From positions 1 to 38,695 of the IMG/VR virus record IMGVR_UViG_3300036778_000038: a stretch of 38,695 bases of DNA, one strand, 5' to 3'. How positions within the stretch are numbered: the first letter of the stretch is position 1; every line of letters begins with the position of its first letter. Shown here piece after piece: positions 3,943-38,069 of the stretch. The notes beneath the pieces were generated by a model that was not told the origin of the DNA, did not search any database, and was given only the letters and a program-made list of their open reading frames with translations. Source of the stretch: a virus. Taxonomy: Duplodnaviria > Caudoviricetes. Position numbers and translations under genes: made by a program.

Positions 3943-4457
3943 GGCTGAACCTCACGGATGACGGGATGAGATGAGGCGATGAGAACCGAACGCGGCAATC
4001 GGCGAACATCGAACGCGCGTAAGCTCGTGCCGTCGCCGTTGTTGATTTCGGGAAAGTCGCGGCGGTTACGCCATGCCGGGTTATCACGCCAGAATTGGCG
4101 CAATTCGTTTAGGTCGATAAGAAACCATCGCGCGACCTCGCCCGCGATGTCGGCGGCGAATCCGTACCAAAGCCAATCACAATGGCCGGTTTCGATTTTT
4201 TCAAGTTCGGTTTTTGAGTTGCCTACGCGGCATCGCAAAGTGAAGTCGAACGGGTATTTGATCGCACACGACGCGTCACGTATGCGTAAGCCAATGTGCA
4301 ACGGATGCATGGTGACCGTTACAAGGTCGGCGGCATGATGCATGTCGTCGTCCATATCCGATACGCGCAACACGTACCTACCGCATATCGCGATGGCCGC
4401 CTCGGTGTAGGCATCTGCCCAAAGACGCAAGCGAACAAATTTCGGGTAGTCGGTCAT
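3939..4457 (-). CDS. conserved hypothetical protein, possibly restriction-endonuclease-like fold
   Basis: D..D.....DL, FTLR...KTELEKI..G.CDWLWYGF motifs; fold is a guess. Confidence 0.55.
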   Translation of the reverse strand: MTDYPKFVRLRLWADAYTEAAIAICGRYVLRVSDMDDDMHHAADLVTVTMHPLHIGLRIRDASCAIKYPFDFTLRCRVGNSKTELEKIETGHCDWLWYGFAADIAGEVARWFLIDLNELRQFWRDNPAWRNRRDFPEINNGDGTSLRAFDVRRLPRSVLIASSHPVIREVQP

Positions 4458-4682: not shown

Positions 4683-4982
4683 CTAGGGTTCCTGGCGTTT
4701 GTTCAATTGCGCTTCGACTTGCGACACAATCGATTCGGGGTCGGCGCGTAATTGCGCCAACACTGAGCGACCCTTTAAATCGAGGAATTCGAGATAATGC
4801 CGACCGCATAGGCCGATACGCGCGCCGCCTGCTACGGTTTGAAACTGGTCGGCGAAACTGCGCATATATCGACCGTGCCCGACGTAGGTCATGCAATCGC
4901 GGACGAGGCAATAAATCGGCGTCACGTTATGTGCGGGTGCTGGCGTGGGCGCGGTCGATTCGTCGTCGTTAAAGTTATGCAT
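4683..4982 (-). CDS. hypothetical Cys/His-containing protein downstream of the replication initiator
   Basis: CLVRDC...LCGRH; overlaps the initiator stop. Confidence 0.6.
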   Translation of the reverse strand: MHNFNDDESTAPTPAPAHNVTPIYCLVRDCMTYVGHGRYMRSFADQFQTVAGGARIGLCGRHYLEFLDLKGRSVLAQLRADPESIVSQVEAQLNKRQEP

Positions 4983-5850
4983 CGAAAAAACCCTCGCTCA
5001 CTTTCGCGAAATTGTCGGGTTTGCAAAACCAAAACAGGGACGGACGAAAGCGGCGCGAGTGTCCGTTGCTCGGTTGCACCTTGCCCATGAGAAAAGCGTT
5101 CGTGCGAATGTGCTCGAAATAACGGCGCCAACTATCGAGGCTTTGCAAATCTCCCTCGCGAATGCGCGAACGAATACTCGACGCCCTGGCGCTCGTGAGC
5201 TTGCGCACGGCTGGCAGCTCGGGCATGAGCTGATGCCATAGCGCGACGACTTCGTCGGGTGACGGTTTGGCGGGTTTCGGTTTGCTGGCGCTGGCGCCGT
5301 TCGGCTTGTTGCCCGCGATCACGCTTTGCTCACGTTCAACACGAGGGGCATTAGCGCCAGCTAATTGCCCTATATCTTTTGCAGAAGAAACAGAAGGCAC
5401 AGAAGAAACAGAAGAAACAGAAGAAACAGAAGAAACAGCCGTACATGCAATGACATTGTCATTGCTTGCAATTGCCTTACCCGACATGTCGTTACATGCA
5501 ATTGCATTTTTCGGTTCGGGTTCATCGGGAAGCCGAGAACGCGGCTCGTGTGGGTGCGGGTGCTGGTGCTCGTCAAACTTCGTGACCTTGATGACTTTGA
5601 CGCCGTCGACGACGTATCGCCGAATGAAATCGATGGCAGCAAGCATGCCGAGCCATTGCTCGATATCGGCATTCGTGACGGCATCGTCAAAAGCGAACAG
5701 CTCGCCGCGAATTTTGCCGGGTCGGTCCTCCAACAAGCCGGGCCGAAGCGCGAGCCCGGTCAAGCCGAGTGCCAGTAAGCGCACGTAAGGCGGCAAGGCG
5801 CCGAGAAACTCGTTTCGCCAAAAGCCGGGCCGCAATGAGCGCGAATGCAT
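4975..5850 (-). CDS. phage replication initiator (lambda O-like)
   Basis: N-terminal RSLRPGFW...RLLALGL...LEDRPGKIRGELFAFDD, low-complexity linker with DNA repeats, C-terminal WHQLMPELP...FLMG...LFWFCKPDNFAKVSEG; alternative start 5874. Confidence 0.8.
   Translation of the reverse strand: MHSRSLRPGFWRNEFLGALPPYVRLLALGLTGLALRPGLLEDRPGKIRGELFAFDDAVTNADIEQWLGMLAAIDFIRRYVVDGVKVIKVTKFDEHQHPHPHEPRSRLPDEPEPKNAIACNDMSGKAIASNDNVIACTAVSSVSSVSSVSSVPSVSSAKDIGQLAGANAPRVEREQSVIAGNKPNGASASKPKPAKPSPDEVVALWHQLMPELPAVRKLTSARASSIRSRIREGDLQSLDSWRRYFEHIRTNAFLMGKVQPSNGHSRRFRPSLFWFCKPDNFAKVSEGFFDA
5382..5507. repeat. candidate replication origin inside the initiator gene
   Basis: Six tandem 9-mers CAGAAGAAA (5382-5435, one variant), then three TGCAAT-containing iteron-like boxes near 5443, 5464 and 5494. 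Confidence 0.65.
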
Positions 5851-5854
5851 GAGT

Positions 5855-6067
5855 TCAAGCCTCGGCGATGACATGGCGGCGGCGGTCTTGAACGGCGATA
5901 AACAGGCTTATGCGGGCTTCGTGATGCATCATCGCCACGTCGGCTAGGGCTCGGGCGTCGGGGCGGTTAGGCGCCCATGTGAGAAGCTCGACGGCGCGCA
6001 TGCGATGCCAGTCGAGCAACGCGTCGACCTCGTCGTCGGTCAGACGAATGCGGTTGCGTGAGGCCAT
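5855..6067 (-). CDS. hypothetical protein
   Basis: 70-aa ORF with GAGGT RBS between the cro-like gene and the initiator. Confidence 0.6.
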   Translation of the reverse strand: MASRNRIRLTDDEVDALLDWHRMRAVELLTWAPNRPDARALADVAMMHHEARISLFIAVQDRRRHVIAEA

Positions 6068-7426: not shown

Positions 7427-8791
7427 ATGAAAGTCAGCATCACGACCGACACACAAATTCGTTCGGCGAAACCCGGGCGTTATGCCCTGGGAAATAACCT
7501 TTTTTTGCTCGTCCGCGATAGCGGCTTGCGTCAGTTCAGCTACCGGGGCGCCGACGGCACGGCCAAAGGAACGCGCCGGCTCGCCAAGCTGGGCGAATAC
7601 CCGACAATGACGCTCGCCGCTGCCCGCGCTATGGCGTTGCGTGAGAAGGCCGCGCGCATGGCTGGCACGACGCTGATTCGACCCAGCAACAAGGGCAAGC
7701 CACGCGGCAAGCAACGCCCGAGCGTGGCGGACCTGGGCGAGCCCATGGCGAACCCGCAAACCGCCACGTTCGGCGACTGGTGCGACTTGTATGTTCACGA
7801 GGTCGTGTCAGCGGGCCTATGGAAAGCGTCGAGCCACAACACGCACGAAAAGCATATCGGCAAGTATTTGCGGGGGTTTGGCTTTTGGGGCGATCCGCTG
7901 CCGTCCATCGAGCCGGCCGACGTGTCGATTTTCCTCAACGCGATCTATAGCGGGCGCCACGTTGCCCAAAACGGACGCCCGGCGCCGTCGGTCGCGAAAC
8001 AGTTGCTTTCGCTGATTTCCTACATTTTCCGGTTCGCGGTCGAGCGCAACGCGAAAGGCGTTACCGATCCGCGCCCGTTCGTGTCCCTGGGCGCCAGCGT
8101 CGGCGGGCGCAAGGGTCAGGCGACAAAGCATTTCCCGAGCCTGAAAGACCTCAACGACCTGGGCGGCGTGCTGCGCGAGTTGCGCGACCGTCCCGCCCTG
8201 GCGTTGCCGTTGCGTAACGCGTGCATCCTTCAGGCATTCACCTTGCACCGCTCGGCGGTCATTGCTGAGATGCGCTGGGCATGGTTTGACCTCGACGCCG
8301 CCGTGCCGACCCTGCGCGTCCCGCGCGAGTTTATGAAAATGAGCGACGCCGAACGCGGCGATTTCCTGATGCCGATTTCGCCGTTTGTTGCCGACTTCGT
8401 GCGCAAGCTGCCGCGCAACCATCCCGAGCGGTTGTTCGTGTCGGCACGCGACAAAACGGTCGCCATGAAATCGACCGCGCTGCCGCAAGTGTATGCAAAG
8501 GGGCTCAAGCTCGGCGGTCAAATGGTCCCGCACGGCTGGCGCTCGGCCTATTCGACCTGGGCGCACAACCTACTCGACGAAAAGGATTCGCCCGTTTTTA
8601 ACCCGGTAGGCGTTGAGTTTGCACTCGATCACGAACCGCGCTCGCAAACACGGCGCGCGTATGACCACGTAATGATTGTGCATCGTGCAAACAAAATGCG
8701 TGCGCCGTTATTGGCATGGCAAGACATTTTGTTTCGCGCCATGAATGGTGAACACATTCCCGCGTTGAGCTTGTCGGATTTGGCGGCATAA
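7427..8791 (+). CDS. int: tyrosine integrase, P4-like with N-terminal arm-binding domain
   Basis: GRYALGNNLFLLV...LGEYPTMTLAAAR arm domain; catalytic R (LHRS), K (MKM), HxxR (PHGWRS), H (LDH), Y (RAYDH). Confidence 0.92.
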   Translation: MKVSITTDTQIRSAKPGRYALGNNLFLLVRDSGLRQFSYRGADGTAKGTRRLAKLGEYPTMTLAAARAMALREKAARMAGTTLIRPSNKGKPRGKQRPSVADLGEPMANPQTATFGDWCDLYVHEVVSAGLWKASSHNTHEKHIGKYLRGFGFWGDPLPSIEPADVSIFLNAIYSGRHVAQNGRPAPSVAKQLLSLISYIFRFAVERNAKGVTDPRPFVSLGASVGGRKGQATKHFPSLKDLNDLGGVLRELRDRPALALPLRNACILQAFTLHRSAVIAEMRWAWFDLDAAVPTLRVPREFMKMSDAERGDFLMPISPFVADFVRKLPRNHPERLFVSARDKTVAMKSTALPQVYAKGLKLGGQMVPHGWRSAYSTWAHNLLDEKDSPVFNPVGVEFALDHEPRSQTRRAYDHVMIVHRANKMRAPLLAWQDILFRAMNGEHIPALSLSDLAA

Positions 8792-15267: not shown

Positions 15268-15690
15268 ATGTTTGATGATACAGGCGGCGGTGATGACGGC
15301 GGCGGGTTCGGTTCATGGTTTAGCCGACCGCATTACTACATTTTAGATGGCCATTTGCCGTTGCCGTGCGGCGACTTTATGCGCTGGGCCGTGTGGGTCG
15401 CCCGCACAAATCGACGCATCGCGACGACCAAAATTCGCGGGTTGTGCGTGTCGACGGTATTTCTCGGCATCGATTCGGGCTTTCGTGGTCCGCCGTTGTT
15501 GTTTGAAACGATGGCGTTTCGTAGCGGTCGCGGCGGCGTACAAACGCGCTCGTCGACCTGGGACGAGGCGCTGAGCGAGCATAAGCGCATGGTGAAGGCG
15601 GCGCGCTATGCCTGCCGACCTCGCGCCCTGGCGAGCTTTGACGCTAACGAGCGCGACGCCATTCGCGGCGCGTTTCGGCTCGACGAATAG
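15268..15690 (+). CDS. hypothetical phage protein, paralog of 9849-10298
   Basis: YILDGHLPLPC...WAVW...VSTVFLGID..GPPLLFETM...STWDEALSEH. Confidence 0.7.
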   Translation: MFDDTGGGDDGGGFGSWFSRPHYYILDGHLPLPCGDFMRWAVWVARTNRRIATTKIRGLCVSTVFLGIDSGFRGPPLLFETMAFRSGRGGVQTRSSTWDEALSEHKRMVKAARYACRPRALASFDANERDAIRGAFRLDE

Positions 15691-15707
15691 GCGGTTTTGC
15701 CCCTGGG

Positions 15708-15736
15708 TTGCATACGGCCATTGGCCGTATTAAGCT
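15708..15736 (+). promoter_or_regulatory. moron promoter with a perfect palindromic operator
   Basis: TTGCAT(15708-15713)-17 nt-TAAGCT(15731-15736); ATACGGCCA-T-TGGCCGTAT at 15712-15730. Confidence 0.75.
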
Positions 15737-15785
15737 ATGCACTCCGGTGGCGGTTTCGCCGCCCTCACGCCCTAGCAGGTAGCCC

Positions 15786-16148
15786 ATGAAAGTCCTAACC
15801 CGCGTCGTCGACACGACGCAACTACAAATCGGCGACGTCGTCCTATGCCACGGCGGGCGCTTTGAGCTGGTCCGTTTTACGTGTGACGCGGCTAAAGCTG
15901 CCAACCGCGCCGCCTATGTCCGCCGAACCAAAAGCGAGCGCTACAACGTCGGCAAGGCCGACGAGGTCGAGCGGGAAGCGGTACGCGAGGAAACGTTGCG
16001 CGCCTTTGCGACGCGTTACCTCGGGCGCCAGCATCCAGACTTTGAGTGTTCCGTGCCGCTCGACTGGCGCGATTGCGAGGAAAACCCGGACGGCTGGAAT
16101 ATTCAAGGCAATGCCCTGGCGCGGTGGACGATTGAGGTAACGGCGTGA
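15786..16148 (+). CDS. hypothetical protein, candidate anti-CRISPR/anti-defence by context
   Basis: 120 aa, first gene after a dedicated promoter, coupled to a small HTH gene; function inferred only from context. Confidence 0.6.
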   Translation: MKVLTRVVDTTQLQIGDVVLCHGGRFELVRFTCDAAKAANRAAYVRRTKSERYNVGKADEVEREAVREETLRAFATRYLGRQHPDFECSVPLDWRDCEENPDGWNIQGNALARWTIEVTA

Positions 16149-16354
16149 ATGCGCCGTCACCCTTGGAAATCAGCGCGGCGCGTGCCGCCGCTGGTTTGAC
16201 GCAAGCCGAGGCGGCGGCGCTCGTGTATGCGGACATTCGGACGTGGCAGCGCTGGGAAGGCGACGAACGCGCCATGCATCCGGCGATTTTTGAGCTTTTT
16301 ATGATCAAGACGGGGCAAGTTAGCGCCCGTCGAACAAATACGGTGAAGGTATGA
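16145..16354 (+). CDS. small XRE-family HTH protein (Aca-like)
   Basis: PSPLEISAARAAAGLTQAEAAALVYADIRTWQRWEGDERAMHPAIFELF. Confidence 0.8.
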   Translation: MNAPSPLEISAARAAAGLTQAEAAALVYADIRTWQRWEGDERAMHPAIFELFMIKTGQVSARRTNTVKV

Positions 16355-16761
16355 AAACGGGAAAAATGGGTTTTGTGTTTTCGCTTTTGATCCTCGTCGG
16401 CTTCGGCGTGTGGCACGAGTCGAGCAAACCGAAAGCGCCGCCGCATGTCGTGACGGCCGAGGAAAAGGCCGCAAAGGATAAAGACGCCGAGCGCTTTGCG
16501 CGCGTGACGGCGGGCGGCAACGCGATCAAGGCGTCGGCCAATAACCCGGATTCGATCAAGTTTCGCCGCGTGATGATTTTCGACTCGGGCGCGGTCTGCT
16601 ATGAATTCACGGGCTCGAATGCGTTTGGCGGCATCGTGCAAAACTACGCGGTTTTGCCTGCCGGCTCGTCACAAGTCGCGTTCAACAAGGCCGCGATCTG
16701 GAATAAGCAATGCGACGGCGCCGGCTATAACGTGCCGGAATGGCTGAGCCGGCTTAACTGA
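16351..16761 (+). CDS. membrane-anchored periplasmic protein (possible exclusion/moron)
   Basis: N-terminal TM helix, then NPDSIKF...VCYEFTGSNAFGG...WNKQC. Confidence 0.7.
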   Translation: MKTGKMGFVFSLLILVGFGVWHESSKPKAPPHVVTAEEKAAKDKDAERFARVTAGGNAIKASANNPDSIKFRRVMIFDSGAVCYEFTGSNAFGGIVQNYAVLPAGSSQVAFNKAAIWNKQCDGAGYNVPEWLSRLN

Positions 16762-16768
16762 GCCGCGC

Positions 16769-17026
16769 GTGATGTCACAAATTCCCGGGAATTGGCTATG
16801 GCTCGCTTGCCCCCATTGCGCGGGGTCGGCGGGCTTTTTTATGCCGCTGCATGAAAGCAACTCGCCCTCGACCCTCACATGCGCCCATTGCAGGCGCATG
16901 TTTCATTTAAGCGCTCGCGTCCGCCTCAATGTGCGGATTGTGCAAGGCTTTTTGCAATCGAACGGCCTCACGGGTGGCACGGTCGACGCCACGCTCGACG
17001 ACGACGATTTCGTCGATTTGGAGTAG
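16769..17026 (+). CDS. putative zinc-ribbon protein with acidic tail
   Basis: CPHC...CAHC and DDDDFVDLE end; fills the gap up to the convergent holin stop but overlaps a terminator-like hairpin (16801-16841). Confidence 0.45.
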   Translation: MMSQIPGNWLWLACPHCAGSAGFFMPLHESNSPSTLTCAHCRRMFHLSARVRLNVRIVQGFLQSNGLTGGTVDATLDDDDFVDLE

Positions 17027-31668: not shown

Positions 31669-32003
31669 CACGCGAGCGCCGGGTCGCGGTAGCGGTGCAA
31701 AATATCCGTCACGCTCGGCGGCAAGTAGCCGAGCGCGGTTTGTTCCATCGGCGGGCGCGTCGCGTCGGGGTTAAGTCCGCCGCTGCGATCCTCGTACAGC
31801 CATCCGAGCGTGAGTAACACGGCGGCTTGAATCACGGGCGGCGCGCTCGTCGAATCCCATGCATCGGACCCGGTCGGAAACTTGATGTAATCGAGCACGA
31901 CCGCCGACGCTTGCGTGATCTTGGCGGCGATGTCGTTTTCCTCGGCGTCGTAATAGTTGCGCAAGTGGTCGCGCGCCGCTTCCATCGTGACGAGGTCGTT
32001 CAT
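31668..32003 (-). CDS. head-tail connector (HK97 gp6-like)
   Basis: [12 protein letters not shown]...ASAVVLDYI...[19 protein letters not shown]...LHRYRDP. Confidence 0.9.
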
Positions 32004-34111
32004 GTCTCGTTCCCGCCTTCGATCAATAGGCGCCCGTCGCGCCCGGGCTTGCCGTCCTTACCGTCACGACCGACCGCGCCCGTCGCGCCCATGGCGCCGC
32101 GTTTGACGGCGAGCTGCCAGCCGCTTTCGGCATGCCCGGGTGTGCCGCGCGTGTCGGCGTTCGCGTGCCACACGCCGCCGTCACGCGTGACCATATCGCC
32201 GCGCATGTAATCGCCCGACTGCCATACGCCCATGTAAAGCGGGACGGGGAACGCCAGCCGACAAAACGATGTCTCGCCCTCGGCATTCGTAAACCCGAAT
32301 TCGACGGTTCGGCCGTCGTCGCCGAGTTCGGCGCGCAAGTCTTTCGCGGTAATCCCGGGCGGGCCTTGCTCGCCTCGAACGCCGCGCTCGCCGGGGTCGC
32401 CCTGGCGCCCACGCGTGCCGCGTTGCCCGGGGGCGCCTGCCGCGCCCGGCTGGCCGTCGCGACCGTCCCGCCCTGGCAACCCCTCGGCGCCGGGCTCGCC
32501 CGGCTCGCCTTGCGCGCCCTGTACGCCCTGGGGGCCGCGTTCGCCCTTCAGCTCGGCGCGCATGGCGTGAAGCCATTCGCCGACGGCTTCCCGAACGATG
32601 GCGCGCACGTTTTGCGCGGTGGCCGCCTCCTCGACGAGCTGCAAGCGCGTCACGAGCGCCACGAGCTGCCGGGCGCTGGGGTCGTCCGGGGGTGGCTCGC
32701 CGTCGGCGCCAGCGGGCGCGGGTGGCGTTGCGGGCGGCGTTCCTGGCGCGGGGGTCGCGGGCGGCGGCGTGCTGCCCGGGGGTGGACGTTCGGCAAGCGA
32801 TGCCAGGGACCAATTTTGTTGCTGCATATACGGCGTATCGCCGCCGTCGACGGGCTCCATGTTTTCGAGCTGGCGCGCCTCGTTCGGCGCCATCCAACCG
32901 CCCGCGATAGCGTCCGAATGCGACTTGTACCGGGTCGCCGTGTCCATACGTAGCAACGACGTGAGGTCAAGCTCGACGGCCGTGTTCAAATCGAGCCCGA
33001 GCCCGTCGTCGACGACTTGCTCCCAAGCCTCGATAAGCGTTTGCAAACAATCCGTGTAATAGATTTGATTGAGGATTTCGCCGTTTTGGTAGGTCGGCAT
33101 CGGGCCGGCGCCGACCTTGAACGTCGGCACATGAAAGACCGAACAAATCGTTTCGGCCGTCCATTTGAGCTGTTCGATCAATTGCGAGTCGACGGCGGTC
33201 ATCGTCATCGGCTCGAACTTCAGGCCGTCGCCGAGCACGGCAACCGATCCTGATTTGTCGCCGGTAAAGTTCGCCGTCCAATAGTCTTTAAGCCGGGTTG
33301 CGGTGTCGTCGCCGATGGCGCCGGGCGCGGTCAATATGCCCGACGGTCGGGCGGCGTTCGCGAAAAAGCGGTTTGCATTCCCGCCCATGGTCAACCCGCC
33401 GAGCGCGGGCAAGCCTGCCGCGTACAACGGCGACAAGCCGATGAGCGGGTGATAAAGACAGTTGAAACGGTCGTGCATCATTTCCGACGCCGGCACGACC
33501 CATGCGCCGTCGACCGACGTTTCGAGCCCTTGGAACATGGGCGGGTAAATGTCCGGGTCGAACGTCGGCACGCCCGTTAGGTTGAGCCAACGGCTCGCGC
33601 GCAACTGGTAAAAGATTTCGCCATTCGGCGCAATGAGCGGCGTCACGGCGCACGGGTCGAGAATGTAAATCCCGTTGACGACACCGCGCGCATCGCGCTG
33701 CAAAAGGCCGTAAGTATTGCCGCGTGAAAGCTTCGATAGCATCCACGTTTCTTTAAACTGCATGTGATTCTGGTACGGGTTCGGCTGGCGTAACACCGGG
33801 CTATAAGCCGGGTTTACGATTTCCTCCCATATGTCGTCATCACGCGACGTCAATTTCGGACGTAGCTTGGCGATGTCGCCCGCGATCAATGTCACGCATG
33901 CGAAAACCGTCGGGTTCGATAACAACGTTTCGGGGATGATTTCCTGATTGCGCTGCCATGCGCCCGTATTCGGTTCGCGAATGACGAACGGCCAACCCCA
34001 ACCACTACCGCCCGCGCGACCACTGTTCACGGGCGCGAGGTTCGTCGGTGGCTTGTCGGTCGCGGCGCGCGTGAAGGGATTGCGCACGGTAAGGCCGAAT
34101 AGCGAGGCCAT
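32000..34111 (-). CDS. HK97-family portal protein fused to Pro-rich linker, collagen-like and CBM-like domains
   Basis: Portal motifs [45 protein letters not shown]; then 22 Gly-X-Y triplets and YMGVW...GDMVT...W...PG...W. Confidence 0.9.
32348..32545 (-). repeat. collagen-like (Gly-X-Y)22 coding repeat; a second (Gly-X-Y)8 run lies at 32027-32098
   Basis: [66 protein letters not shown]. Confidence 0.9.
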
Positions 34112-34320: not shown

Positions 34321-36360
34321 TTAGCTGCTCGACTTACGCGAGGCCGATTGCGCTGCCGGTGCTTCGTCGGCGGGCGGCGTTTCGACAATCGTGTTAACCG
34401 TCGGGTAATCCGGCACATAGGCGGCGCCGCTGATCCATGCGACGGCCTGATCGCGCCGACGCTGCCAGTTGATGTATCGCTCGGCGCGGATGCCAACAAG
34501 GTTGTTCTGATACAGCGACACAAGCACGGTTGCCGCCGTCGTCGGGTCGTCCGGTGCGGTGTCCATCTGCAACGACGCCTCGCGCGATACGTCAATCGTT
34601 ACGCCGCCATCGTCCGCGATGAGGATATCGGACGCGCGACATAGCACGATCATGTCGCCGACGGGGCTTGTCGTGCCGGGTACAACCTGAGAAGCGATAA
34701 CGGGCAGACCGAATAGAACCGGGTTCGCGCCGTTAAGGCTCGGGTACATCGGCTGACCCGCGACGTTGACCATCATCGCGAGCGCGATCAACGCGGTTTC
34801 GGGCATGATCCATACGGCGCCAGCGACGCCGAGGTTCGCCGAGGCGAATGCCTGAAAAAGCGTCAACACGTCACGACGCAAGGCGAGGTCGCTCGTACCG
34901 CTTGCCGGGATGCCGGCGATACCGTTCGTGATCGAACCCGGATGCACGCCAGCCAGGGGCGCGACGGTCGGGTCGAGAAACTGCATATCGATGAACTGAG
35001 CAATCGCGGCGATGAGGTCAGACTGAACCAATGCCTCGGCGCTTGGCGCACTGAACCGCGCCAGCTCGTCGGTAATGACCACGATGCCGGCGACCTTCGT
35101 TTCGCCCATCTGCAAAAGCGAAAACGCCATTTTGCTTACGGGCTTCGGCTTGCCCTCGCCGACCCATCCGACCGTGCTGCCGAGCGTCTGCGCCGGGATT
35201 TTCACGTTAAACGGCACATTGCGAAGGCCGGGAATGCGACCGACGACGGTCGCGGGCCGTAGCAGTTCGATGAATTCGCTCGCCATGATTTGATAATTGA
35301 CGAGCGGACCCGCCCATGTCGGGTCGGTTGTCGTGCCAGGGGCAACGGCCGCTTTCTGATACAGCGATGCGGGTAACGCCACGACGCCCGCGACTTCCGG
35401 CGTGTCGGTCCATTGCTTCGCGTAGGCGACGGCGTCGGCTTGGTTGCCCTTGCCGGCCATCATCGCCATGCATACGCGGGTAAACAAGCGGCCGGGCGGT
35501 AGCTTGCGTTTCAGGGTGATCACGGCGCCCTCGCGAATTTCGAGGCCGCTGCCGCTGCCGCTTTCGTCTTTCGCCGGGCCGTTGATCGGCTGAGCGGCGG
35601 CGCGGTTCTGCTTGTCCTGGGCGCGTAGGCGCGCGAGATGCTTGTCGATACTTTCGATTTCGGTCGAAAGCGCGTCGTGCTCCTCGCCTTCGGCTTCGTC
35701 GAGCGTGCGCCCTTCGTCGGCGGCTTTCTGCATGAGCGCCGCGCGTGCGGCGTCTTTCGCGGCGCGGGTCGCCTCGAATTGCGCGATTTGTTCTTTCAGG
35801 TTCATTCGCTTGCCCTCGGGTTTGGTCGCGGTGGCGCCCGCATGGGTGACTGGTAAAGACGCGCGCCCACGTTGCGTGGCGCGTTGTTCGGTGTCGGCTT
35901 GCTTGATGCTCGTCACGGTGGCTTCGGCATTCGCCGGGATCGTCACGAGCGAAAGTTCGAGCCATTCCCACGACTTGAAACGAATGCCGTCGGTGCCTTT
36001 GATCGGCTCGGCGCTGAGCGAGCGAAAGCCAATCGATACGCCGCGCACGAGCCCGGCCTTTAGGCTTGCCCATGCCTCGTCGAGCCGTGCCTTAAGTTGC
36101 GGCGGGCCGTCGACTTGCGCGATTTCCGCCTCGAACGGGATACCGTCGGCGGTCTTTTCCGCATAGGTCACGCTGCCGACGGGTTGCTGCGTGTCGTGCT
36201 GCCATAGCAGCGGCATCGGTACGCGAAACTTTGCGCCGAGCGGTTCGACAATGTCGTCCATGCGGTCGGTTGCGGGCGTCGAGGCCATGCCTTTAAGCGT
36301 CCGGGTTTCCTCATCGACGCTTTTCACTTCGAGCACGGCATAAGCGCGGGTCGTGGTCAT
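34321..36360 (-). CDS. HK97-type prohead protease / major capsid fusion protein
   Basis: Protease motifs LLWQHD, GVSIGF, ELSLVTIPAN; coiled-coil scaffold; capsid motifs WVGEGKPKP, KVAGIVVITDEL, LYQNNLVGIRAER; GAGGG RBS before ATG 36360. Confidence 0.92.
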   Translation of the reverse strand: MTTTRAYAVLEVKSVDEETRTLKGMASTPATDRMDDIVEPLGAKFRVPMPLLWQHDTQQPVGSVTYAEKTADGIPFEAEIAQVDGPPQLKARLDEAWASLKAGLVRGVSIGFRSLSAEPIKGTDGIRFKSWEWLELSLVTIPANAEATVTSIKQADTEQRATQRGRASLPVTHAGATATKPEGKRMNLKEQIAQFEATRAAKDAARAALMQKAADEGRTLDEAEGEEHDALSTEIESIDKHLARLRAQDKQNRAAAQPINGPAKDESGSGSGLEIREGAVITLKRKLPPGRLFTRVCMAMMAGKGNQADAVAYAKQWTDTPEVAGVVALPASLYQKAAVAPGTTTDPTWAGPLVNYQIMASEFIELLRPATVVGRIPGLRNVPFNVKIPAQTLGSTVGWVGEGKPKPVSKMAFSLLQMGETKVAGIVVITDELARFSAPSAEALVQSDLIAAIAQFIDMQFLDPTVAPLAGVHPGSITNGIAGIPASGTSDLALRRDVLTLFQAFASANLGVAGAVWIMPETALIALAMMVNVAGQPMYPSLNGANPVLFGLPVIASQVVPGTTSPVGDMIVLCRASDILIADDGGVTIDVSREASLQMDTAPDDPTTAATVLVSLYQNNLVGIRAERYINWQRRRDQAVAWISGAAYVPDYPTVNTIVETPPADEAPAAQSASRKSSS

Positions 36361-36374
36361 GGTGTAGCCCTCAC

Positions 36375-36400
36375 AAAAAAACCGCCTTGCGGCGGTTAGG
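36375..36400 (-). terminator. terminator-like hairpin at the terL stop, identical to 30322-30347
   Basis: cctaaccgcc-gcaa-ggcggttttttt. Confidence 0.65.
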
Positions 36401-38069
36401 ACAAAACGAACATTTGGAATTTCGGTTGTGTAGGTCCGCCCACCATGGCGCGACCCATCGCCGCGCATAACGCGACGAACGGGTCGATTTTGTTTTCGGC
36501 TCGTTCTTTGTTCGGGTAAATGTTGTCTTTGCGGTCAAGCTTGGCGACGACGTTCGACATCGCCCATTGCATAACCGGGTCGCCGTTGTGGTGCAGCTTG
36601 CGGTCGCGAATCAGCGCCTCGACCTGTTTCATCGGCTCCGAAAAATTGAGCACGGTCGGGCCGAACGAAATAAGCGGTAGCCCTTCGTTTTGCAACGCGG
36701 TGACGAGCATCGAGGCGTTATGCGGGTCGAACGCGATTTCGGTAATTTCAAACCGTGTTGATAGGTCTTTGATGTCGTCGAGCAATTGAAAATAGTCGGT
36801 TTGATTCCCTGGCGTGACGGTGAGCCAGCCGTCGGTATGCCATGCCCGATAGTGCTGGTTTTCGGCTTGCTCGACGGTTTCCTCGGGCAGGTAGTACAAC
36901 CCGAAGCGCGCGAAACTGCCGTCGGCTTCGGGAAAAAGTAATTCAAGCGCGGTCAAATCGATCTTGCTCGCGAGATCCATGCCGAGGAAACAGGGGCGGC
37001 CGGCGTAGTCGTCGAGGCTCAACCCTTCGACGCGACACTCGTGCCAGCGTTGCATGTTGATGAAAGCATCCCGGGCTTGAACCCATAGATTGAGATGCTT
37101 TGTTTTGAAATGCCCTTGCTTGCGCGGGTTGTTGATCGCATCGCGTTGCTGCGCTTGCAAAAATTCAGCGTCGACACTGATGCCGTAGTTGGGGTTTGCC
37201 TTGATCAACGCGGCCTCGCTCGTCCAGTCGTCGCCGTCGTCTATCGTGTAAATCAGCGCGAACGTTCGGTCATCCTCAACGATGTTTTGCAGGATGCGCT
37301 GGCATTCGAGCCAGTCATCGCGGCACGGGCCGGCGAGGTTGTCGCCGGCCGTCGACACGACGAGTGATAGCGGCTGTTCTCGCGCGCCCATGCCGGTTTC
37401 AAACGTCGACAATTGTTCGTCGGTCTGGTGCTCGTGATACTCGTCCGTGATCGAACAATGCGGCGATGCGCCGTCGCCGGGTTTACCGATGACGGGCTCG
37501 AACTTGGCCATGCTGAGCGCCATCACGAGCGATTTCGCGTTCGCATCGATGCCGAACTTTGTACGAAACGCCGCCGATTCGAGTGCCATTTGTCGCGCGG
37601 GTCCGAATACCTCCCATGCCTGTTTCTCAGTCGTTGCGCCTGAATAGACCTCGGCGCCGGCCTCGTCGTCGCCTGCCAGCATGTATAGGCCGAGCGTTGC
37701 CGCCGTTGCCGACTTGCCGTTTTTGCGGGCGACGTATAGCCGTCCCTTTCGGAAACGACGTAACGCGGTGCGCTTGTGAACCCATCCAAAGAGCGAGGCA
37801 AAAAAGAAGCATTGCCACGGCGAAAGGGTCAAGCGCTCGCCGCGTGCTGCCCATCGCCCTTTGACGTGCCGAAACTTTTCGACGAAACAACACACGACCT
37901 CGGCGCGTACCGGGTCGAACTTGTACGGCCAATCTTTCCTTTTCGCGCTGGCAAGGTCGCGCAAATGCCGCTCGCATGCGAGTCGTATCCACTGGCACGC
38001 TAAGACATCGCCCGATAGAACGCCTTTGACATAGGCGTTACTTAGCGCGACGTGCGGGTTTTGTGACAT
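36396..38069 (-). CDS. terL: terminase large subunit
   Basis: LSPWQ, Walker A VARKNGKS, Walker B ITDEYH, STAG, nuclease GMDLASKIDLTA and KIDPFVA; start ATG 38069. Confidence 0.96.
   Translation of the reverse strand: MSQNPHVALSNAYVKGVLSGDVLACQWIRLACERHLRDLASAKRKDWPYKFDPVRAEVVCCFVEKFRHVKGRWAARGERLTLSPWQCFFFASLFGWVHKRTALRRFRKGRLYVARKNGKSATAATLGLYMLAGDDEAGAEVYSGATTEKQAWEVFGPARQMALESAAFRTKFGIDANAKSLVMALSMAKFEPVIGKPGDGASPHCSITDEYHEHQTDEQLSTFETGMGAREQPLSLVVSTAGDNLAGPCRDDWLECQRILQNIVEDDRTFALIYTIDDGDDWTSEAALIKANPNYGISVDAEFLQAQQRDAINNPRKQGHFKTKHLNLWVQARDAFINMQRWHECRVEGLSLDDYAGRPCFLGMDLASKIDLTALELLFPEADGSFARFGLYYLPEETVEQAENQHYRAWHTDGWLTVTPGNQTDYFQLLDDIKDLSTRFEITEIAFDPHNASMLVTALQNEGLPLISFGPTVLNFSEPMKQVEALIRDRKLHHNGDPVMQWAMSNVVAKLDRKDNIYPNKERAENKIDPFVALCAAMGRAMVGGPTQPKFQMFVLS

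What the first reader, a model, noticed from the sequence alone, without database searches (positions are those of the whole stretch)
15708..16761. acr-aca-like cassette containing an uncharacterised candidate anti-defence protein
Seen: a near-consensus promoter whose spacer is a perfect palindrome (ATACGGCCA-T-TGGCCGTAT), a 5' UTR hairpin (GGCGG-TTTCG-CCGCC, 15749-15763), a 120-aa unknown ORF, a translationally coupled 69-aa XRE HTH and a membrane-anchored protein. The cassette sits near the end of the early operon, next to the lysis genes. Established: acr operons have strong promoters repressed by small Aca HTH proteins binding inverted repeats, and Aca2 also binds a 5' UTR stem-loop. Inference: 15786-16148 is a new anti-CRISPR or other anti-defence protein. 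I do not recognise it as a known Acr.
Basis: partly seen in the sequence, partly recalled or inferred. Interest (0 to 1): 0.72.

Follow-up and report, generated by a model that had tools for sequence, protein, structure and literature searches.

The report
Aca10-controlled operon with unknown phage protein
This phage carries a relative of the known anti-CRISPR repressor Aca10 and a matching binding site in front of an uncharacterised 120-residue protein, which is likely made in an early burst to blunt a host defence that remains unidentified.

Summary
The anatomy is real, and the regulator is identified. The 69-aa HTH is an Aca10 relative (PDB 7XI5, E 2e-17). The palindrome matches the tested Aca10 operator at 15 of 19 bases. 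Among other Aca10 loci, a basic residue at Aca10 position 38 goes with C at operator position 7 (5 of 6 versus 0 of 15 clusters; post hoc), and this locus fits. The promoter is not near-consensus (3/6 + 3/6). The leader hairpin sits where aca10 leaders tend to have one, but published EMSAs have not shown Aca10 binding RNA. The 120-aa ORF is no known Acr. It belongs to PHROG 10286, a cross-phylum family with a predicted SH3/KOW-like barrel and an invariant Q-x-N motif. None of 57 other family loci has Aca10 or a recognised acr nearby. Single loci place it beside ArdA, a PAPS reductase or a methylase, and one plasmid copy sits behind a parallel promoter-palindrome-HTH unit. Verdict: a new member of the aca10 operon class (regulation about 0.9). 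The cargo is anti-defence at about 0.55: non-CRISPR 0.40, CRISPR 0.15. A toxin-antitoxin pair is unlikely.

The parts
15708..15736 (+). predicted sigma-70-type promoter TTGCAT-17-TAAGCT (3/6 + 3/6)
   Evidence: sequence; best-scoring site upstream of the ORF; the tested aca10 promoter is TTGCAA-16-TATTCT
15712..15730 (.). Aca10-type operator, perfect 9-1-9 palindrome filling the promoter spacer
   Evidence: 15/19 identical to the minimal Aca10 site ATACGCTCATTGAGCGTAT; only copy in the window even at 3 mismatches
15746..15763 (+). leader hairpin just after the inferred transcription start
   Evidence: RNAfold; position-restricted shuffle test z -2.6
15786..16148 (+). 120-aa uncharacterised protein, PHROG 10286 family, predicted SH3/KOW-like barrel with a helical insert; candidate anti-defence cargo
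16145..16354 (+). Aca10-family HTH repressor, 69 aa, GTG start overlapping the upstream stop
   Evidence: PDB 7XI5 E 1.9e-17; 7XI5 is Aca10
16351..16761 (+). 136-aa protein with an N-terminal membrane segment, function unknown; likely third gene of the operon
   Evidence: ATGA overlap; hydropathy; weak PHROG 2320/16400 hits; unnamed Pseudomonadota clusters
16801..16842 (+). predicted intrinsic terminator
   Evidence: hairpin of -22.2 kcal/mol followed by T6

Best explanation
This is a three-gene phage operon with an Aca10-family repressor gene and an Aca10-type operator inside its promoter, and its first gene likely encodes a counter-defence protein aimed at something other than CRISPR-Cas. 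Inferred mechanism: when the DNA enters a cell that lacks the repressor, the promoter fires and the 120-aa protein is made in a burst. The translationally coupled repressor then accumulates, dimerises on the 19-bp palindrome between -35 and -10 and shuts the operon off, keeping it quiet in the lysogen. The cargo is predicted to fold as a small SH3/KOW-like barrel. Its conserved H-G and W-x-x-Q-G-N-x-x-A-x-W residues would bind a ligand common to many phyla, such as a nucleic acid, a nucleotide or a conserved defence component, and so blunt an early barrier such as restriction. Shown: anatomy, homology, operator match. Inferred: binding, timing, anti-defence role, target. Odds: Aca10-type autorepression 0.9; cargo anti-defence of any kind 0.55, of which non-CRISPR 0.40.
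For: HTH matches Aca10 over 55 residues, E 1.9e-17. The DNA-binding and dimer residues named in the paper, Q22, R34, Q37, R44, E52 and K57, are kept as Q20, R32, Q35, R42, E50 and K55. Operator 15/19 identical. Of 122 viral loci with the operator pattern, 30 have a tblastn hit to this HTH (21 of 51 perfect palindromes, 9 of 71 imperfect), against no BLASTP hit at E<0.01 in loci L140-L255. Residue-38/base-7 covariation fits this locus. Aca10 loci carry known Acrs: L034 is the published acrIC7-acrIC6-aca10 locus, L039 has a 52% AcrIC6 relative, L093 has AcrIF11. In relatives from three other soil studies the operator is kept while the flanks diverge, and one contig puts a different start codon behind the same leader. 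Cargo family context: behind a strong sigma-70-like site in 8 of 31 clusters against 2.7 expected; directly upstream of ArdA in L162, of a PAPS-reductase gene in L253, near a methylase in L149; on plasmid NZ_CP043565.1 it is the first gene behind one of two repeated promoter-palindrome units flanking an unrelated HTH, next to traK/traM.
Against: No functional data. The Aca10 link is seen once: 0 of 57 other family loci have Aca10 or its operator within the fetched flank, and 0 of 49 Aca10- or operator-bearing records hold the family (positive control 5 of 5). Recognised anti-defence neighbours are sparse (ArdA 1, PAPS reductase 1, methylase 1 of 31 clusters), and no background rate was measured. 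The promoter test uses a background that includes coding DNA, so it is lenient, and this locus's own promoter (6/12) would not pass it. Only 3 of 29 fully flanked Aca10 loci had a recognisable acr, so Aca10 adjacency does not prove function. G49, needed for the dimer, is Ala here and H30 is Tyr. The closest relatives (80%, 54%, 58%) could not be placed in context.
Confidence: 0.4

Rival explanations
1. Same Aca10 regulation, but the 120-aa protein is a host-takeover or establishment factor (for example acting on translation or transcription), not an inhibitor of a defence system.
For: Family members lie among small early genes in mycobacteriophages (beside L5 gp79/82/84/88 relatives), near tRNA genes in phage MD18 and near a genome end in phage Astolliot. 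The best fold matches are EF-P/eIF5A domain I (Z 6.3, rmsd 2.6-2.7 over 66-69 residues). PMC13551039 says Aca operons hold many non-Acr genes.
Against: Z under 8 may only reflect a common barrel. No fixed partner gene. ArdA and plasmid-transfer contexts lean towards counter-defence.
Confidence: 0.3
2. The 120-aa protein is a new anti-CRISPR, probably against a type I system.
For: It sits in the acr position, between operator and aca10. The Acrs recognised at Aca10 loci here are type I inhibitors (AcrIC6, AcrIC7, AcrIF11). Some Acrs such as AcrIC5 span phyla.
Against: No Acr match in Pfam, NCBIfam, PHROGs or PDB; no acr recognised among scanned neighbours; pI 6.1, not the strongly acidic DNA-mimic type described for 7 of 8 type I-C Acrs. 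The libraries are weak, since they missed AcrIC6 and AcrIC7.
Confidence: 0.15
3. The operon's main product is the membrane-anchored third gene (for example superinfection exclusion), and the 120-aa ORF is an interchangeable passenger.
For: HTH and gene 3 are joined in relatives from two other studies (records 14 and 20), while the first gene appears swapped in one. Small membrane proteins flank aca10 in L020, L045, L048, L057 and L066.
Against: Tight repression in the lysogen does not suit exclusion (inference). Gene 3 has no named family.
Confidence: 0.1
4. HigBA-like toxin-antitoxin pair: the ORF is toxic and the HTH neutralises it.
For: Toxin-first gene order; Aca10 resembles the HigA2 HTH; weak MqsA-family hit far below cutoff.
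Against: The family occurs without this HTH in 57 of 57 other loci. The HTH has no extra toxin-binding extension beyond Aca10's length. The model is an SH3/KOW-like barrel.
Confidence: 0.05

Closest known systems
acrIC7-acrIC6-aca10 operon of Pseudomonas citronellolis (Aca10, PDB 7XI5; PMC9410881)
   Same: Homologous 65-69-aa HTH; 19-bp 9-1-9 palindrome ATACG-NN-CA-T-TG-NN-CGTAT in the promoter spacer; cargo-then-repressor order with overlapping stop/start; leader hairpin position.
   Different: Operator bases 6-7 are GC instead of CT, with Arg instead of Gln at position 38; G49 is Ala; the promoter register is shifted and weaker; the cargo is unrelated to AcrIC6/IC7; a membrane-anchored gene follows the repressor.
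Aca-regulated non-Acr anti-defence candidates (PMC13551039)
   Same: Unannotated gene under an Aca operator; aca10 operons are reported to have a predicted 5' UTR hairpin directly after the start site.
   Different: This family is not named in the Results text read; the supplementary figures (S6, S8, S9) are pictures that could not be compared.
PHROG 10286 (unknown function)
   Same: 79 of 82 aligned members match it.
   Different: This protein belongs to a subtype with a long helical insert (residues about 35-69) that many actinobacterial members lack.
EF-P / eIF5A domain I (SH3/KOW-like barrel)
   Same: Top structural matches, Z 6.2-6.3.
   Different: 6-10% identity, no OB domain, no significant Foldseek hit; a shared fold only.

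Membership tests
Aca10 | sequence homology to Aca10 | tested here: met
   E 1.9e-17 over residues 3-57, only PDB hit at E<=0.1
Aca10 | DNA-contact residues Q22, R34, Q37, R44 | tested here: met
   Q20, R32, Q35, R42 by the alignment; residue list
Aca10 | dimer-interface residues H30, G49, E52, K57 | tested here: inconclusive
   E and K kept; G49 is Ala and H30 is Tyr; Ala at 49 also occurs in other operator-linked members
Aca10 | cognate 19-bp inverted repeat in the operon promoter | tested here: met
   15/19 identical; differences fit the residue-38 covariation
Aca10 | binds the operator and represses transcription | not testable with these tools
   needs EMSA and reporter
acr-aca operon | a known acr gene in this operon | tested here: inconclusive
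   none recognised, but the libraries also miss AcrIC6/IC7
anti-CRISPR protein | inhibits a CRISPR-Cas system | not testable with these tools
   needs plaque or interference assays
anti-CRISPR protein | homologs repeatedly beside known acr or aca genes | tested here: not met
   0 of 57 other loci with Aca10; no Acr family among scanned neighbours; one plasmid copy beside an unrelated HTH with repeated operators; other Aca families were not searched by profile
type II toxin-antitoxin (HigBA-like) | toxin family travels with its antitoxin | tested here: not met
type II toxin-antitoxin (HigBA-like) | RelE/ParE toxin fold | tested here: inconclusive
   model is SH3/KOW-like; such toxins are not among the top rows, which does not exclude them

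The most novel reading that the evidence does not exclude
PHROG 10286 is a new counter-defence protein family spanning Proteobacteria and Actinobacteria, on phages, plasmids and integrative elements. It uses an EF-P-domain-I-like barrel with an invariant WxxQGNxxAxW surface to neutralise a widely shared defence, and different elements have placed it under different autorepressors. Separately, Aca10 proteins have a simple recognition code (residue 38 against operator base 7) that lets operators be matched to repressors.
Probability: 0.35. Interest if true: 0.7.

Novelty: new member of a known kind. Interest (0 to 1): 0.42.

Why it matters
The regulatory scheme is known, and finding unknown genes under Aca control is now expected. 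The value is a concrete, small, well-folding candidate whose family crosses phyla and keeps a strict motif, so one panel of defence assays could name a new inhibitor class or rule it out. The residue-base covariation, if confirmed, would help assign orphan Aca10 operators and give orthogonal repressor-operator pairs.

Tried and rejected
Homodimer prediction of the 120-aa protein: no answer. Single-sequence model of a short family member (L156): pLDDT 42.6, not used. Foldseek against PDB: nothing at E<=0.001; profile against PDB sequences: nothing credible. Search for longer fused forms: none scored, weak evidence. Locus searches for close relatives: none in viral contigs or genomes; the single metagenome hit L140 was judged spurious, as it had no matching ORF and no profile hit. 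P0010, P0018 and P0031 were dropped as unrelated repeat proteins, and P0027 and P0028 as fragments. L152 was dropped as a partial hit. PADLOC: 0 of 8 proteins. Rfam: three matches, all far below gathering score. The plasmid-type operator in viral contigs: 3 loci that look like chance coding matches. No RNA holder listed. The Aca10 tree was unresolved (1 of 19 inner branches starred). Aca10 was not found elsewhere in 5 family-bearing records. Earlier scan findings: none. Literature searches for this family or for the residue-base code returned nothing on either; one search returned unrelated papers and is weak.

Full report
Setting. The window is a whole IMG/VR virus record of 38,695 bases, 78% complete. 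It is a temperate lambda-like siphophage, with an integrase at 7427-8791 and tail, capsid, portal and terminase genes on the minus strand from about 18.8 to 38.2 kb. The cassette ends a run of small plus-strand genes and converges on the end of the minus-strand late genes. Its G+C (0.58-0.63) is not unusual for the region. The host is unknown; the nearest terminases, about 50% identical, are from proteobacterial phages.

Observation. The palindrome (15712-15730), the three overlapping ORFs and the hairpin are present. The promoter is only 3/6 + 3/6 to consensus. A terminator-like structure closes the unit at 16801-16842. The label 'lysis genes' for the neighbours could not be confirmed by any library.

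The regulator. The HTH's only PDB match is 7XI5 (E 1.9e-17), which is Aca10 (PMC9410881; parts 1-4 of 5 read, covering the main text). That paper shows binding to a minimal site ATACGCTCATTGAGCGTAT lying in the promoter; the window's palindrome differs at 4 of 19 positions, symmetrically. Q22, R34, Q37, R44, E52 and K57 are kept; G49 is Ala, H30 is Tyr and Q38 is Arg. Thirty have a tblastn hit to this HTH, 29 of them among the 80; loci L140-L255 gave no BLASTP hit at E<0.01. Recognised Acrs occur at 3 of those 29: the published acrIC7-acrIC6-aca10 locus L034 (same operator, promoter and repressor as in the paper; gene names taken from the published order), an AcrIC6 relative in L039 (52%) and AcrIF11 in L093. 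The other upstream genes are mostly unnamed.

A recognition code. From 34 operator-plus-HTH loci I dropped two with the operator downstream of the gene (L039, L090) and two without the motif (L084, L138); the remaining 30 formed 22 clusters at 80% identity. Leaving out this locus, Arg, Lys or His at Aca10 position 38 went with C at half-site position 7 in 5 of 6 clusters, and other residues in 0 of 15 (Fisher p 3e-4). This locus has Arg and C. The idea was formed on the same data and the tree is unresolved, so independence is not shown. It still argues that this repressor and this palindrome are a matched pair.

The leader hairpin. Whole-leader folding is at chance level. Restricted to windows starting 8-20 bases after the operator, this locus scores z -2.6, and 13 of 22 clusters score below -1 (mean -1.2). 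[quoted passage not shown] In related contigs position 15752 reads A in two contigs, which would weaken a pair. The hairpin is a plausible family feature with no shown function.

Relatives in other samples. Contigs from three other soil studies align at about 80-96% identity (the fourth run may be the source of this record). They keep the operator: the only listed change within 15713-15730 is the unpaired centre base, and one loose end shows T at 15712. The DNA upstream diverges. One contig joins the promoter to the 120-aa gene, two join the HTH to gene 3, and one has a different start codon behind the same leader, which suggests cargo exchange.

The cargo. It has no Pfam, NCBIfam, PADLOC or credible PDB match and matches PHROG 10286. 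Searches gave 31 and 29 protein hits. Q107 and N109 are invariant, and G16, G23, G108, A112 and W114 nearly so, in 47 sequences collected without the motif. The AlphaFold model is confident (pLDDT 94.6, pTM 0.84): a beta-barrel with a two-helix insert. The best structural matches are EF-P/eIF5A domain I at Z 6.3, which shows a common fold and no function; the viral library gives unnamed phage proteins, including two from Arthrobacter phages. A motif scan returned 37 viral and 75 genome loci. A profile confirmed 54 of these at E<1e-6; with 3 annotated phage loci this gives 57 loci in 31 clusters, from actinobacterial phages and elements, Rhodobacteraceae and others. None has Aca10 or its operator nearby, and 0 of 49 Aca10- or operator-bearing records hold the family (control 5 of 5). 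Pfam scans of 133 and 90 proteins from these loci and an NCBIfam scan of 98 found no Acr. They did find ArdA directly downstream in L162, a PAPS-reductase gene downstream in L253 (the same motif is visible in five more loci of that Streptomyces cluster), a methylase in L149, DUF2786/DUF7168 in three clusters, and L5 gp79-88 relatives in mycobacteriophages. PMC13551039 lists PAPS reductases among candidate anti-defence genes. The gene lies behind a strong promoter-like site in 8 of 31 clusters against 2.7 expected (lenient background). A member of the same helical-insert subtype (P0056, 31% by BLASTP) on Stenotrophomonas plasmid NZ_CP043565.1 is the first gene behind one of two identical promoter-embedded palindromes (2 found, 0.01 expected) that flank an unrelated HTH, beside traK and traM. 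No relaxase is annotated there, so leading-region status is an inference from recalled IncP gene order; PMC11541004 (passages) describes leading regions as rich in anti-defence genes.

Reading. The regulation is Aca10-type with about 0.9 confidence. For the cargo I give non-CRISPR counter-defence 0.40, host takeover 0.30, anti-CRISPR 0.15, passenger to gene 3 0.10 and toxin 0.05. The lean away from CRISPR rests on the strict cross-phylum motif, the near-neutral pI (6.1) and the lack of acr neighbours; all are soft. Passages of PMC9410906, 10.1101/2020.06.15.151498 and PMC12658196 were also read. Supplementary figures and tables that could not be seen may already list this family or the operator variant.

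Verdict. A real, new member of the aca10 operon class with an uncharacterised and testable cargo; interest 0.42.

Noticed in passing
L256 3690-5000 (plasmid NZ_CP043565.1; palindromes at record 4315-4332 and 5537-5554): Two identical promoter-embedded palindromes TTTCCTA-N4-TAGGAAA flank a 75-aa HTH unrelated to Aca10. The HTH has relatives in 685 plasmid records, mostly Klebsiella and Acinetobacter, and in one Xanthomonas plasmid lies among ParB, methylase, DUF932 and SSB genes: a candidate Aca- or Kor-like regulator.
   Followed up: partly
L017, L021, L039, L063, L067, L088, L091 leaders: A second conserved leader hairpin (CCGCGCCTCGGG...GGGGC) just before the ribosome site in many aca10 operons; absent from this window.
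   Followed up: no
L025, L050, L051, L059, L077, L086, L099 and similar: A group of related phages has the exact P. citronellolis Aca10 operator in a strong promoter but no hit to this HTH within the fetched flank; the regulator may be distant or more divergent.
   Followed up: no
L020, L045, L048, L057, L066: aca10 is flanked by 48-54-aa proteins with a hydrophobic N-terminus, and several of these loci have tandem operators.
   Followed up: no
window 5447-5465: Second perfect 9-1-9 palindrome GCAATGACA-T-TGTCATTGC inside the replication-initiator gene 4975-5874; possible origin or operator element.
   Followed up: no
window 32000-34111 and 34321-36468: The portal protein (703 aa) carries a collagen-like repeat after the portal domain; the prohead protease and major capsid are fused in one 715-aa ORF.
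   Followed up: no
window 7427-8791: Divergent tyrosine integrase (27% to the nearest phage record) placed at the head of the plus-strand arm, upstream of an excisionase-like gene and a 366-aa XRE protein.
   Followed up: partly
window 15690-15701 and 15749-15760: 12-base near-repeat (GGCGGTTTTGCC / GGCGGTTTCGCC) on either side of the promoter; may be chance.
   Followed up: no
L038 523-702 and L149-type loci: A PHROG 8020 gene downstream of aca10 in L038 has 41-49% identical relatives in eight loci that carry the 120-aa family: a weak second-order link.
   Followed up: partly
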